A stretch of 64,000 nucleotides of DNA from Candidatus Poribacteria bacterium (GTDB lineage Bacteria > Poribacteria > WGA-4E > PCPOR2b). Where the stretch lies: positions 5,376,001 through 5,440,000 of the forward strand of contig OZ244587.1 of assembly GCA_965218095.1 (NCBI GenBank), in the 5' to 3' direction. The notes beneath the pieces are model-generated. The model was not told the DNA's origin, did not search any database, and was given only the letters and a program-made list of their open reading frames with translations. Position numbers and translations under genes: made by a program. The first letter of the stretch is position 1, and each line of letters starts with the position of its first letter. Shown piece by piece: positions 13,924-23,942 of the stretch.

Positions 13924-14844
13924 ATAATTCCAGTTACACGACAACAGAACGAAACGGGGCTGGTTATCGGGACCGAGACGAAAGAGTTAATCCAGTCCAG
14001 CATAGCAGATAGCACACTCAGGAGATACCAGAAGTTATCGGAGCAGATAGAAGCATGGCTCAGTGGTCAGATATTGACTGACGCGCTTTTGGCAACATAC
14101 ATCACGGAGCTTTACCAGCAAGGCAAATCCCCTGCAACGATCGCCCAGGTGGTCGCCGCGGCGCAGTGGTTGGCAAAGAATCATGGCGTCGAGGTCGTTA
14201 GTGAGATCACCATTAAAACATTGGCAGATATCCGCCGTGAAGGGAAGGCACGCGGTCGAGGGCAGGTCGAAGGTATAGTCTGGTCCGAGGTGGATCGGGT
14301 CTGCGCGTTTGCGGAATCGGACAATTCCATCGCGGGGCTGAGGGACGCCGCGTTGATTCGGCTCATGAGCGATTGTCTCTTACGTGTCAGTGAAGCGGTC
14401 GCGGTCAACTGTGGCGCCTTCAAAAAGAATACGCTGTTGATTGTGTCCAGTAAGACCGATCAGGAAGGACGGGGCGAAGCACTATATGTCGGTGACTCTA
14501 CCCTCAAACTGATAAGGCGGTATCGGTCGAAGGCAGGTATTGAACGGGGAGCGTTGTTTCGGCGTATCCGCCGGGGCGATCATGTAACCAGTGAGCGGTT
14601 GACTCCTACCAGCGCGAGGCGAATTATCAAAGCACGGGCGGAGGCTGCTGGGGTCAATGGTTTCATCTCTGGGCACTCCCTTCGGGTCGGCTCTGCGGTC
14701 TCGCTGGCACAAGCTGGGGCGTCGGTCGTCGATATGCAGACAGCGGGGCGGTGGAAAGACCCCAAAATGCCATCTCACTATGCGAAAGCCGAGTTAGCGG
14801 AACGGGGCGCAATTGCCCGGTTCAGATATGGTAAAGGTAGGTAA
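13924..14844 (+). CDS. Cre-like tyrosine recombinase (start uncertain; frame open from 13918, track start TTG 14074)
   Basis: RDAALI..LLRVSE, SKTDQEG, SGHSLRVG, AGRW, HY catalytic set; upstream frame SIADSTLRRYQ resembles a core-binding helix. Confidence 0.88.
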   Translation: MIPVTRQQNETGLVIGTETKELIQSSIADSTLRRYQKLSEQIEAWLSGQILTDALLATYITELYQQGKSPATIAQVVAAAQWLAKNHGVEVVSEITIKTLADIRREGKARGRGQVEGIVWSEVDRVCAFAESDNSIAGLRDAALIRLMSDCLLRVSEAVAVNCGAFKKNTLLIVSSKTDQEGRGEALYVGDSTLKLIRRYRSKAGIERGALFRRIRRGDHVTSERLTPTSARRIIKARAEAAGVNGFISGHSLRVGSAVSLAQAGASVVDMQTAGRWKDPKMPSHYAKAELAERGAIARFRYGKGR

Positions 14845-15279: not shown

Positions 15280-16109
15280 TCAACGGAGCCATATAAGAGT
15301 GGAGACAAAGCTGAGAAATCCAAAATAACGGACAGCTAACTTCTCGAACCGAGAGAAGATGCGGCGATACCATTTTATCTTGTTAATGAAACATTCAACC
15401 AGATGTCTCTCAGATGTCTCTCAGATGTCTCTCTTTGTACAGATGTTTGTCGTAATCTCTTTGATCCACACGATGACTTTTTGGCGGTATCACCGCAATC
15501 GCTCCATTCGCCTCAATAACCGCGATAAAATTGTCGGAGTCATATCCCTTGTCTCCAATCACATACTCGCTTTTATATCCAAGTATCAACGCTTCTGCTT
15601 CCGCTATGTCGTTCCTTTGACCGGGCGTCAGATGTATTCTTAGGGGATTACCCAGGCCGTCAACTGTGATGTGAATTTTTGTACTGAATCCCCCGCGAGA
15701 GCAGCCTAACGCTTGGTTTTCAGTGCCACCCTTTTTTTTAAGGCGCCCGCCGCACACGGGTGCGCTCGAATGATTGTACTGTCCACAATAAGCGACTCGA
15801 TATCGGGGTCAGAGGCGAAGTGGTGGTGGATCTGTGTGAAGACCCCTTTGTCGCACCACCGAGCAAAACGCTTGTAGAGGGTGTTCCATTTACCATAGGT
15901 GTCTGGCAGAAGTCTCCATTGAGCACCGCTACGGGTCGCCCAGAGAACCGCTTCGATAAAGCGGCGTGTTATCGCTTCGTTGCCAACATAGATGTTGGGA
16001 CAAGTTAGAAGAAACGAGTATATCTTATTCCATTGGTCATCGGGTAAGGTTATTGGCATCATTCTTCTATTATGCCACAACCTTATACTCAAATGTCAAC
16101 AGAACCTAG
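15280..16109 (-). mobile_element. IS5-family element, defective copy (two-ORF frameshift type; distal TIR degenerate)
   Basis: AAATGTCAACAGAACCTAG end; RSGAQWRLLP, VDSTIIRAH, GDKGYDS; A8 slippery run; 11-bp triplication at 15401-15433. Confidence 0.9.
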
Positions 16110-20829: not shown

Positions 20830-20893
20830 AAAAAAAAAGCCTCCTGATGCCGATAGAAGGTGTTACTCTATTCAATCATGAACATCAGGAGGC
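20830..20893 (-). terminator. Probable intrinsic terminator of the LamG gene
   Basis: 11-bp stem GCCTCCTGATG/CATCAGGAGGC (large loop) followed on - strand by T9. Confidence 0.6.
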
Positions 20894-20912
20894 GGATTCT
20901 GAATTAAATAAC

Positions 20913-21934
20913 GATTAAGGGGCACTAAGCAAATTCCCGCATGAAGTCTAATAACCCATCTCAATGCTGCCCCGAGCGGTTGTTAATTCACGTTTGGGAC
21001 TCACCGCGAGCGGTTTGAGGGGCGCGATAGATTCAATGAGTATAGTCCTTCTTGATGCTACCCCAGGTGGTTGATAATTTACTTTTGGGACTCACCGCGA
21101 GCGGTTTGAGGGGAGCATCGGATGGAACAAATTTAGCCTTCCTCAGGAGACCATGGTTTGCGAACTGCGATTCATCATTCGCGATTCTTCCCTCTCCTTC
21201 ATTAAAATGATAGAGAATTATCGTATTATCATCAGCCTCGAATTCTCTTTCTTGTATCGGATAATCCTTGCCAACATATCTGGCGCTGTCAGATAGGCGG
21301 ACTTCGTCAATAATTCCTTCAAATGGCGCAGTCCACCGTACAACATGGCCAACCGTATACGGATGAACAACTGACTTAATCGGTCCTCCGTTGGCCTCCG
21401 CAAAGTCAAGTTTACCATCAACGTGGGTGTACATATTTTCCCCGTCCATGCTGGTAGCAACATGGTGCCAATTGTTCATTGTGACCTTTGCATTACCTTT
21501 CCAGGCCCAGAACCCATTTGCGCCTGTGCCCCAGACCGCGCCTTTATAGATTAGGCCTTCAGACACTTGCGTTTGATAGGAGTCCTGTCTCCCGACGACG
21601 CAAGCGTGGCTGTTGAAGGTGTTTTTTGCTTCCGTTATAAAAATCCAGGCCTCCATTGTTATTCCGTCCACAATAGAGGCGATACTTCCACTGTGCTGTG
21701 CAATGACCATATTATCATCGTTGTCGTTGTTGAATTCAACAGCAAATTGTGGTGGCGCAGCGAATGCACCCCCGGCAATTATGAGTGAAAGCACAAGGGT
21801 TAAGGTTATGCTCAATAAACAGTTTGTGCGCATTTTCTATATCCCTTTCTAAATGTAGTTAAGAGTTGTTGGTAATAAGTTGTGAAGTTGACATGGTTTA
21901 GGGAAGTTAAATTAACGCTTAGTGCCCCTTAATC
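20913..21934. repeat. 18-bp perfect inverted repeat pair enclosing the LamG gene
   Basis: GATTAAGGGGCACTAAGC (20913-20930) / GCTTAGTGCCCCTTAATC (21917-21934). Confidence 0.9.
21033..21833 (-). CDS. Secreted LamG-like jellyroll protein with Poribacteria C-terminal motif
   Basis: ITMEAWI, WHHVA, FEGIIDEVRLS, LAVSPKSKLSTTWGSIK. Confidence 0.9.
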   Translation of the reverse strand: MRTNCLLSITLTLVLSLIIAGGAFAAPPQFAVEFNNDNDDNMVIAQHSGSIASIVDGITMEAWIFITEAKNTFNSHACVVGRQDSYQTQVSEGLIYKGAVWGTGANGFWAWKGNAKVTMNNWHHVATSMDGENMYTHVDGKLDFAEANGGPIKSVVHPYTVGHVVRWTAPFEGIIDEVRLSDSARYVGKDYPIQEREFEADDNTIILYHFNEGEGRIANDESQFANHGLLRKAKFVPSDAPLKPLAVSPKSKLSTTWGSIKKDYTH

Positions 21935-21946
21935 CAAAATCCGTCA

Positions 21947-21976
21947 AGTGTAACATATTTTTTCCCTTGATGTCAA
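21947..21976 (-). promoter_or_regulatory. Sigma-70-like promoter for the LamG gene
   Basis: - strand TTGACA, 18 nt, TG-T-TACACT. Confidence 0.55.
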
Positions 21977-22001
21977 CCCCGATTTGTGAATTTTGGAAGT
22001 G

Positions 22002-23942
22002 CTATTCAGGCTCATCCGCGTCGGATTCGGATTTAGGGGATGAATCACCCTTGGCAGGAGGTTCGCCTTTAGCCTCCTCCCTTTCCTTCGGCGTTTCGGG
22101 AATTCGATCCACAAAGGTTTTGACCTTCGCTCGTGCGCGGAGTTGGGCGAGCCAACCGTTTCTGAGAGCGTCACGCCTCTCATCTTCAGCGACGATTTCC
22201 ACACGTCGGCGGACATCTGCATCCTCAAACGTCTGTTGGTGCTCCGGTTTATGGTCCTCCTTGCGAAAGATCATGTAATACTCCTGATTGTCGATTTCGA
22301 CGGTAAAGACCTCCTCGTTCATCTGTCCGACGTCTAGCGCAAACGCCGCATCACCCAAAGGTTGTGCCGCTTGTGAAAGGGAATGGCGAGCAAAGTAGCC
22401 GGTATCGCCGGGGTTTTCGGGATTTGACCCAGGCTCTTTCAATTCTCCTTCGTCCGACAGTGTTTTGGCAATCTCAGTGATGTCTTCCCCATCCTTAATC
22501 CGCTGAAAGACCTCCTTCGCTCGGTCCTCGTTTATGAGAGAAATGCATGTGAGACGCACCTTCTCCGGTTCAAGATAATCATTCTTATGCGCTTCATAGT
22601 AAAGCCTGTAGTCTGCCTCGGCCAACTTGAGTTTCTGATCGATTTCAAGCTCTGTAATCTTATCGACCATTAATTCGTGGAGATAATCTTGTGCCGCCTT
22701 CACAACTTCAGATTCTTCATTAAGCTTCCGATCTTTGGCGAGGCAAAGTATCAAACGACTCTCTGCCATGAGGTTCATATATTCCTCAAGTCCCGCTTTA
22801 TCTTTATACTGTTTTTGTTCGTACTTAGAGAGTTCGCTAATTTCCTGTTGCATTTCCTCAAGTGTGATTTGATGTTTTCCGTCCCATTCAAATTCAACGA
22901 TTACAGTTCCATCAGCTTCACCGGATTCAGCTCCCATTTTTCCCGCCTCAGATTTCTCTACCGCTGCGTCTTTCTCGGGTGACGGTTCGGGGATGCGATC
23001 CGGATAGATTTTGAGCTTGCCAGCCTTGCTGACCTCTTCCATCCATTCGGTAAAGCGCTGGCGTTTCTTTTTACTCTCTACTTTCCACTCGATGTCATTC
23101 TTGACCTCATCAAAGGACTGTTGGTATTGAGGTATGTGCTCCTCTTTGCGAAAGATCATATAATAAGTCTGAGCCCTAACTTCGATTTCAAAAACCTCTT
23201 CGGTCATTTCGCCAATTTCCTGTTCAAAGACCGTGTCGACAAACTTCTGCCAACTGGTATAAACGGATCGGGTAAAGGGGGAGGTTGTACCTGGATCATC
23301 TCTGCGGGAACCGGGCCCCGTCAGTTCTCCATTTTCCGACAGTTCCTTCGCCATCTCAATGATGTCTTTCCCGTCTTGAATCTGCGCTAAGGCTTCTTGT
23401 GCGCGATCTCTATCTGTGAGGCAGATGACAGTCGCCCGCACTTTTTCTTCTTCCACATACTCTTCTTTGTGTGTCTCGTAATACTGTCTGAGATCCGCCT
23501 CTGTATAGGAGAATTTCTCATCGACTTCCATTTTTGTCAAGCGTTTGATCATCAGTTGGTACTCAATTTCTTCTACTGTCTTGAGCAATGCCTCGTTTTT
23601 ATCAAATTCCTTCTCGAAGGCAGCAAGGAGTTTCAGTTTTTCATCGATGAGTTCCTCAAGATATTCCGCTTGACCTTCTTTGGAGGCGTAGTTTTCTTGG
23701 CGATACCTCGACAGTTTTCCAATCGCTGCCTTGAGTGCTGCAAGCGAAATCTGGTGTGTGCTGTCCCACTCATATTGAGCCACAATAATCTGGCTCTCGT
23801 CCACAGGTCCGGTGGTGTCCCGCGAACCTCGATGCTTCATCGGGATCCAATCGGACTCCACTCCAACTTGCGACTGGACAATCTGCCAAGCGGTTAAACC
23901 AATTGCCGCGATGACAATTAAAATCATCAACGTTTTTTGCAT
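22002..23942 (-). CDS. Peptidyl-prolyl isomerase/foldase with two parvulin (PpiC-like) modules
   Basis: Two internal repeats YYE.HK..Y.E.EKVR...YMIFRKE.H.P..Q.F; N-terminal signal/anchor. Confidence 0.85.
   Translation of the reverse strand: MQKTLMILIVIAAIGLTAWQIVQSQVGVESDWIPMKHRGSRDTTGPVDESQIIVAQYEWDSTHQISLAALKAAIGKLSRYRQENYASKEGQAEYLEELIDEKLKLLAAFEKEFDKNEALLKTVEEIEYQLMIKRLTKMEVDEKFSYTEADLRQYYETHKEEYVEEEKVRATVICLTDRDRAQEALAQIQDGKDIIEMAKELSENGELTGPGSRRDDPGTTSPFTRSVYTSWQKFVDTVFEQEIGEMTEEVFEIEVRAQTYYMIFRKEEHIPQYQQSFDEVKNDIEWKVESKKKRQRFTEWMEEVSKAGKLKIYPDRIPEPSPEKDAAVEKSEAGKMGAESGEADGTVIVEFEWDGKHQITLEEMQQEISELSKYEQKQYKDKAGLEEYMNLMAESRLILCLAKDRKLNEESEVVKAAQDYLHELMVDKITELEIDQKLKLAEADYRLYYEAHKNDYLEPEKVRLTCISLINEDRAKEVFQRIKDGEDITEIAKTLSDEGELKEPGSNPENPGDTGYFARHSLSQAAQPLGDAAFALDVGQMNEEVFTVEIDNQEYYMIFRKEDHKPEHQQTFEDADVRRRVEIVAEDERRDALRNGWLAQLRARAKVKTFVDRIPETPKEREEAKGEPPAKGDSSPKSESDADEPE

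What the first reader, a model, noticed from the sequence alone, without database searches (positions are those of the whole stretch)
20892..21943. LamG gene enclosed by an 18-bp perfect inverted repeat that would pair its 5' and 3' UTRs
Seen: GATTAAGGGGCACTAAGC (20913-20930) and its exact reverse complement (21917-21934) lie between the predicted promoter (21947-21976) and terminator (20830-20893). On the transcript, pairing extends past an 11-nt bulge (GAUUUUG with CAGAAUC, including a G-U). No target duplication or transposase is evident. Inference: either a closed-loop mRNA (RNase III processing, stabilisation or circularisation, like rRNA leader-trailer stems), or a 1-kb invertible segment that would flip the gene away from its promoter as a phase switch. 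The G-U pair favours the RNA explanation.
Basis: partly seen in the sequence, partly recalled or inferred. Interest (0 to 1): 0.75.

Follow-up and report, generated by a model that had tools for sequence, protein, structure and literature searches.

The report
End-clamped mRNA without RNase III
A gene for a likely secreted lectin-like protein in a sponge-associated bacterium is bracketed by a unique 18-base mirror repeat that likely pairs the two ends of its messenger RNA to shield it from decay, in a lineage where the enzyme that normally cuts such RNA helices was not found.

Summary
The repeat is real and not chance: the 18-mer occurs only twice in 6.35 Mb, and only 2 of 5,930 called genes have a low-copy perfect flank-to-flank repeat of 16 bp or more (0 in ten cross-gene controls). 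Both are LamG genes with the same C-terminal motif and terminator family, but with unrelated arms. For the second gene, 11 of 13 orthologs keep the helix with G-U pairs, and three pairs change on both sides (adjacent, in one genome). For the window gene itself no covariation could be measured. Read contigs cross the arms in one orientation only, with no inversion or circle joint. Best reading (about 0.6): a 5'/3'-UTR helix like that of Bacillus subtilis hbs, closing the predicted 5' end against the terminator and likely slowing decay. Pairing and function are untested. Earlier notes of this scan report such helices in other genomes and the RNase III loss.

The parts
21947..21976 (-). predicted sigma-70-type promoter, TTGACA-18-TG-containing spacer-TACACT; start site inferred near 21940-21941
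   Evidence: 10 of 12 consensus matches; start site not mapped
21935..21943 (-). 5' outer segment, pairs with 20893-20901 (9 bp, one G-U; 6-7 bp if the start is 21940-21941)
   Evidence: variant A21939G in RNA run X8 breaks one pair
21917..21934 (-). 5' arm of the 18-bp repeat, in the predicted 5' UTR
21842..21849 (-). probable ribosome-binding site GAAAGGGA, about 70 nt downstream of the 5' arm and not covered by the helix
   Evidence: sequence; accessibility about 0.3 with or without the arm blocked
21033..21833 (-). LamG (PF13385) protein, 266 aa, hydrophobic N-terminus read by eye as a signal peptide, C-terminal K-L-x-T-T-W-G-x-I-K motif
20951..21041 (-). decayed 91-nt tandem copy of the gene's last 91 nt (21042-21132), lengthening the 3' UTR
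   Evidence: 76% identity; also in ortholog L063
20913..20930 (-). 3' arm of the 18-bp repeat, in the 3' UTR
   Evidence: 16 of 18 nt kept in L063
20902..20912 (-). 11-nt bulge on the 3' strand
20893..20901 (-). 3' outer segment, abutting the terminator stem
20830..20893 (-). long-hairpin intrinsic terminator of a family found behind LamG genes

Best explanation
The two arms lie in the predicted 5' and 3' UTRs of a LamG gene and likely pair in the finished mRNA as an 18-bp helix plus a 6-9-bp extension, which would bury the 5' end next to the terminator hairpin and likely slow decay. Shown: the repeat, its uniqueness, a second LamG gene with its own unrelated arms, retention of that second helix in relatives, and the nuclease set (RNase J and E/G found; RNase III and RNase Y not found). 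Predicted: the helix (about -38 to -43 kcal/mol as a duplex), which replaces a weak local 5' hairpin once the 3' UTR is made and leaves the ribosome site unchanged. Inferred: because RNase J and the 5'-end-dependent route of RNase E need a free single-stranded 5' end (established knowledge, recalled) and no RNase III is there to cut a long helix, the clamp would stabilise only complete transcripts and can be gained gene by gene; a stand-alone dsRNA-binding protein in this genome might bind it (speculative).
For: Rarity: 2 of 5,930 called genes have a low-copy perfect flank-to-flank repeat of 16 bp or more, 0 in 10 cross-gene pairings of the same flanks; both are among 40 C-terminal-motif genes (Fisher p 0.007 leaving the index gene out) and both are PF13385, yet the proteins align only in short patches and the arms use different sequence, so two origins. 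Second gene (L031/L096): 11 of 13 best-hit orthologs at 56-57% identity have the 5' arm; in them 143 of 154 cells pair over 14 positions (116 Watson-Crick, 27 G-U, 9 A-C, 2 other), against 42-58% for slid registers; three pairs change on both sides between G000 and the orthologs, 0 of 500 shuffles. Its 3' arm is weakly paired or unpaired in the terminator's side loop. Placement: the helix starts at the predicted start site and ends at the terminator stem, pair probabilities 0.76-1.0. RNA-library contigs cover both arms; one 1,080-nt contig holds the 3' arm and 14 of 18 nt of the 5' arm. RNase III domain 0 of 159 in the order, 14 of 17 outside it; RNase E/G and J found. Precedent: hbs.
Against: No covariation for the window gene: 8 syntenic orthologs at 40-42% identity aligned (12) have no such helix, and the one close ortholog (L063, 80%) lacks the 5' arm on its contig and differs at 2 of 18 nt in the 3' arm. 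The three double changes are adjacent and in one genome, so may be one event; 'further pair types' is at the shuffle mean (453 of 500); counted as events, G-U and A-C changes in the orthologs are about equal (my reading); arm columns are no more conserved than the rest of those UTRs (0.92 against 0.90 and 0.96); in an unguided scan the ortholog helix scored 7.1, within the range of cross-group controls; 2 of 13 orthologs lost the arm. Both G000 repeats are perfect with no G-U in the core, as DNA copying would also give. RNA run X8 has a pair-breaking variant in the outer helix. Start site, pairing and half-life are unmeasured.
Confidence: 0.6

Rival explanations
1. The repeat is a DNA-level by-product with little or no function: a piece of the 3' UTR was copied in inverted form into the 5' UTR, or an imperfect repeat was perfected, by template switching during replication.
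For: Both G000 repeats are perfect and about 1 kb apart (986 and 1,018 nt); weaker similarity runs on beyond the 18-mer on both sides; complementarity extends 2 bp upstream of the likely start site; the window helix is missing in distant orthologs; the three adjacent double changes could be one copying event.
Against: It would not favour LamG genes (2 of 40 against 0 of 5,890); the second helix persists with wobbles in 11 of 13 orthologs at 56-57% protein identity.
Confidence: 0.17
2. The 1-kb segment is invertible: a site-specific recombinase flips the gene away from its promoter as an on/off switch.
For: Perfect arms of suitable length around a gene for a likely exported protein, promoter outside; a tyrosine recombinase gene lies 6 kb away at 14074-14844. 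Contigs drop rare variants.
Against: No inversion joint in 8 runs; contigs bridge the 3' arm in 5 of 8 runs and the 5' arm in 4 of 8 (31 or more letters each side), always in the reference orientation (loose-end tables were cut). L063 and distant orthologs keep gene-terminator order; all 12 aligned copies of the second gene have one orientation, and 11 have mismatched arms.
Confidence: 0.08
3. The arms are two binding sites for a regulator, one just after the promoter and one behind the gene, perhaps looping the DNA.
For: The 5' arm sits at about +7 to +25, a usual repressor position (general knowledge); a third LamG gene in this genome has a flank repeat built on a 21-copy promoter-proximal motif; the second gene's conserved 5' motif runs past the paired part.
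Against: The 18-mer is not palindromic and has no other copy within 2 mismatches; the two genes share no arm sequence; matched changes on both sides and tolerated G-U pairs are not expected of protein sites.
Confidence: 0.08
4. The helix is a processing stem like an rRNA leader-trailer helix, cut by RNase III or another nuclease, or joined into a circle.
For: Length and bulge resemble such stems; this genome keeps rRNA leader-trailer stems without RNase III; two RNA contigs stop 3-4 nt inside the 5' arm (one study, contigs cannot show ends).
Against: RNase III domain 0 of 159 in the order; no back-joint in 4 RNA runs; RNA contigs run through the 3' arm to the terminator in 3 of 4 runs.
Confidence: 0.04
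5. The arms are the ends of a non-autonomous transposon that carries the LamG gene.
For: The genome has hundreds of IS ends of 15-20 bp spaced 0.8-1.1 kb apart.
Against: Two copies only; no target duplication; the terminator and next gene outside the 3' arm are linked to the gene in distant orthologs, so the arm is no insertion boundary.
Confidence: 0.03

Closest known systems
Bacillus subtilis hbs mRNA 5'/3'-UTR long-range interaction (PMC5737220; abstract and section 16 read)
   Same: A short, fully complementary 5'-UTR segment pairs with one just upstream of the terminator (14 nt there; 18 and 16 here) and does not cover the ribosome site; shown there by compensatory mutants to limit nuclease cleavage. 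The second gene also has a 5' hairpin before its arm, as hbs does.
   Different: hbs limits RNase Y, which was not found here; the window helix starts at the predicted 5' end and abuts the terminator; the host lineage lacks RNase III; nothing is tested here.
Staphylococcus aureus icaR 5'/3'-UTR pairing (PMC3868564; abstract read)
   Same: Pairing between the two UTRs of one mRNA.
   Different: icaR pairing covers the Shine-Dalgarno site, blocks initiation and feeds RNase III; here the ribosome site is outside the helix, its predicted accessibility does not fall, and RNase III is not found.
rRNA leader-trailer helices, including those of RNase III-less Deinococcota (PMC11404451; passages read)
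   Same: A long helix closes the two ends of a transcript and can exist without RNase III.
   Different: Those flank rRNA and serve ribosome assembly and processing; this one flanks a coding sequence and shows no sign of processing.
Invertons (bioRxiv 10.1101/2023.03.11.532203; passages read)
   Same: A pair of inverted repeats around a DNA segment.
   Different: Defined by reads in both orientations, which were not seen in contigs; the second gene's orthologs have mismatched arms.

Membership tests
hbs-type 5'/3'-UTR long-range interaction | Complementary segments in the two flanks of one gene, beyond chance | tested here: met
hbs-type 5'/3'-UTR long-range interaction | Both segments are on one transcript | tested here: inconclusive
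   Between predicted promoter and terminator; RNA-library contigs cover both, but contigs show neither ends nor single molecules
hbs-type 5'/3'-UTR long-range interaction | Pairing kept in evolution by compensatory or wobble changes | tested here: inconclusive
   Met weakly for the second gene; not measurable for the window gene
hbs-type 5'/3'-UTR long-range interaction | Pairing changes cleavage or half-life in vivo | not testable with these tools
   needs mutants
icaR-type translation block | 3' UTR pairs with the Shine-Dalgarno site | tested here: not met
   helix ends about 70 nt upstream of the site; accessibility 0.26-0.32 with or without the arm blocked, 0.40 in the full-length fold
RNase III processing stem | Host encodes RNase III | tested here: not met
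   PF14622 and PF00636 not found in G000 (94% complete); PF00636 0 of 159 in the order
Inverton | Both orientations present in reads or strains | tested here: not met
   (contigs only; rare forms invisible)
Inverton | A cognate recombinase acts on the arms | not testable with these tools
   a tyrosine recombinase lies 6 kb away; no link tested
IS / MITE ends | Multi-copy terminal repeat with target duplication | tested here: not met
Rfam RNA family | Match to a curated model | tested here: not met

The most novel reading that the evidence does not exclude
Loss of RNase III has freed a whole bacterial order to use long end-to-end helices as mRNA caps: surface-protein genes gain them independently, gene by gene, the helix docks the 5' end on the terminator so that only complete transcripts resist RNase J and E, and the lineage's stand-alone dsRNA-binding protein recognises them.
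Probability: 0.12. Interest if true: 0.8.

Novelty: new variant of a known kind. Interest (0 to 1): 0.5.

Why it matters
Pairing between the two UTRs of a bacterial mRNA has been shown for few genes (hbs and icaR are the two I read), and those organisms have RNase III. Here two such helices appear to have arisen separately on related genes in a lineage without it, giving a test of what an end-to-end helix does when it cannot be diced, and of how fast such clamps are gained and lost. It is not a genome-wide trait (2 genes of 5,930).

Tried and rejected
A third LamG gene (G000:C1:4644318-4645229) with a 24-nt flank repeat (2 G-U, 1 mismatch) first looked like support; its core is a 21-copy motif found mostly just behind promoter-like boxes, so it was dropped as independent evidence. 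A genome-wide excess of G-U-tolerant helices was not found: score 16 or more, 11 sense, 11 antisense-wobble, 4 cross-gene. A translation switch via a freed anti-SD was tested and rejected. Among 133 motif genes from relatives the longest perfect flank match was 12 bp, in an ortholog of the second gene. The 5' arm of a close ortholog could not be obtained: 176 genomes of the phylum by DNA, arm patterns in genome and viral collections, and P0002 (76% identity) in viral contigs gave nothing; L063 starts 47 nt before the start codon. RNA runs have no cover at 22075-22400 and contigs stop at 20830-20851 and 21930-22010: one study, contigs only, no silent control laid, so not used as proof of transcript ends; two contigs run past the predicted start, which may be read-through or DNA. 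Runs X14 and X12 covered too little of the arms to count. No Rfam match. Paper searches: 'Poribacteria' with 'RNase III' gave 0 papers; searches gave nothing on these genes; passages held nothing on end pairing. Supplements were not read.

Full report
Observation. They enclose one ORF, 21033-21833 (-), a 266-aa PF13385 LamG protein with an N-terminus that I read by eye as a signal peptide and a C-terminal K-L-x-T-T-W-G-x-I-K motif shared by about 40 genes of this genome. A promoter-like site lies at 21976-21947 and a long hairpin with a 9-U tail at 20830-20893. Folding puts the 18-bp helix and a further 8-9 bp beyond an 11-nt bulge at pair probabilities of 0.76-1.0, ending at the terminator stem. 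No tool named the organism; sponge metatranscriptomes hold the stretch and earlier scan notes call the genome Poribacteria, which I did not verify.

More than chance. With a crude gene caller of my own (5,930 genes), exactly 2 genes have a low-copy perfect match of 16 bp or more between their 250-nt 5' and 3' flanks; ten cross-gene pairings of the same flanks gave 0 each. The second is another LamG gene (G000:C1:3735196-3736092; L031, L096) with the same C-terminal motif and terminator family. The proteins align only in short patches and the arms are unrelated, the second gene's 3' arm lying inside the terminator's side loop. Leaving out the index gene, 1 of 39 motif genes against 0 of 5,890 others gives p = 0.007. 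There is no genome-wide excess of looser helices. A third candidate was dropped because its core is a 21-copy motif.

Not a transposon end, and no sign of flipping. There is no target duplication, and orthologs at 40-42% identity keep the order gene, terminator, sugar-isomerase-like gene, so the 3' arm is not an insertion boundary. Four RNA runs of one study and four large runs of unrecorded kind from three studies, all kept as contigs, show no joint at either arm. Contigs bridge the 3' arm in 5 of 8 runs and the 5' arm in 4 of 8, always in the reference orientation; two runs covered too little. Contigs drop rare variants and some tables were cut, so a low-frequency inversion is not excluded. 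A tyrosine recombinase 6 kb away has no shown link.

Evolutionary evidence. For the window gene it is thin. Distant orthologs have no comparable helix. One close ortholog, L063 (80% identity), keeps 16 of 18 nt of the 3' arm and the bulge, but its contig begins after the place of the 5' arm; its 3' segment would still pair with the window's 5' segment at -26 against -38 kcal/mol. The strains in the read sets show no change in the arms in the listed pieces, but differ too little to inform; run X8 has a variant that breaks one outer pair. For the second gene, 13 best-hit orthologs at 56-57% identity were fetched; 11 have the 5' arm and 2 have lost it. In the 11, 143 of 154 cells pair over 14 positions (27 G-U, 9 A-C mismatches), against 42-58% when the register is slid. 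Between G000 and these, three pairs change on both sides (C-G/U-A, A-U/G-C, G-C/A-U), two swap A-U for G-U in 9 of 11, and two extra pairs exist only in G000. Limits: the three changes are adjacent and in one genome; the alignment was anchored on the arms; pair-type diversity is at the shuffle mean; the arms are no better conserved than the rest of the UTRs; and unguided, the ortholog helix does not stand above cross-group controls.

Which enzymes could act. RNase III was not found in G000 with two Pfam models nor in any of 158 other genomes of the order, but was found in 14 of 17 genomes outside it (one search agrees). RNase E/G and RNase J are present, RNase Y was not found, and there is one stand-alone dsRNA-binding-domain gene, a lead taken from earlier scan notes. 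The rRNA operon is linked and keeps leader-trailer stems, as in other RNase III-less bacteria (PMC11404451, passages). The RNase III reading therefore fails for lack of the enzyme.

Mechanism. The nascent 5' UTR folds weakly (about -12 kcal/mol, no better than shuffles); the long-range duplex is -38 to -43, so once the 3' UTR is made the ends should pair. The ribosome site is about 70 nt away and its predicted accessibility does not fall, so this is not an icaR-type block (PMC3868564, abstract). The nearest tested case is B. subtilis hbs, where a 14-nt perfect pairing between the 5' UTR and a segment just before the terminator limits cleavage, shown with compensatory mutants (PMC5737220, section 16). 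I infer a like role: a paired 5' end is a poor substrate for RNase J and for 5'-dependent RNase E (recalled knowledge), and without RNase III the helix carries no cost. Pairing in vivo, the start site and any effect on half-life are untested. The main rival is a DNA copying accident that made or perfected the repeat; both could be true, mutation making the arm and selection keeping it.

Novelty. The kind is known (hbs), and earlier notes of this scan list several such helices in other genomes (unchecked) and the RNase III loss (checked here). What is added is two apparently separate gains on related genes in an RNase III-less lineage, one closing the predicted 5' end against the terminator. 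A search for 'Poribacteria' with 'RNase III' found no paper in the held library. Verdict: real feature, likely an RNA end clamp (0.6), new variant of a known kind, interest 0.5.

Noticed in passing
G000 and 158 genomes of its order: RNase III domain not found in any, but in 14 of 17 genomes outside the order; a stand-alone dsRNA-binding-domain gene lies at G000:C1:162918-163118. Noted before by this scan.
   Followed up: partly
G000:C1:1366700-1370421 (L095), flanks of 23S rRNA: Two complementary segment pairs (9 bp and 24 bp) flank the 23S gene in crossing order, A-B before and A'-B' after, so they cannot both form as a nested stem (read by eye).
   Followed up: no
G000, 21 places, e.g. C1:4645368: The 12-mer AAAATGAACCAT recurs, often just behind -10-like boxes, probably a regulator site; LamG gene C1:4644318-4645229 has one copy in its leader and an inverted one 11 nt after its stop, giving a possible 24-nt helix.
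   Followed up: partly
window 20951-21132: Tandem 91-nt duplication of the gene's end; the copy is open in another frame and would encode a second, degenerate C-terminal motif, but is disrupted in L063.
   Followed up: partly
L031:2075-2105: The second LamG gene's terminator is interrupted by a short palindromic repeat-family insertion that its orthologs lack.
   Followed up: no
L101 and L109, upstream of the gene: Two orthologs of the second gene have a replaced leader without the 5' arm; the new sequence resembles small mobile-element ends. Natural clamp-less variants.
   Followed up: no
G000:C1:997377-999794 and C1:1225349-1225840: Two more genes with long imperfect flank-to-flank complementarity: 33 nt of repeat-like sequence, and 17 contiguous pairs with two G-U on the transcript strand.
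   Followed up: no
G000, whole genome: One IS end 18-mer occurs 296 times and other IS ends dozens of times; one such transposase remnant lies at window 15410-16092.
   Followed up: no
window 14074-14844: Tyrosine recombinase (PF00589) below the curated cut-offs of XerC and XerD, 6 kb from the repeat.
   Followed up: partly
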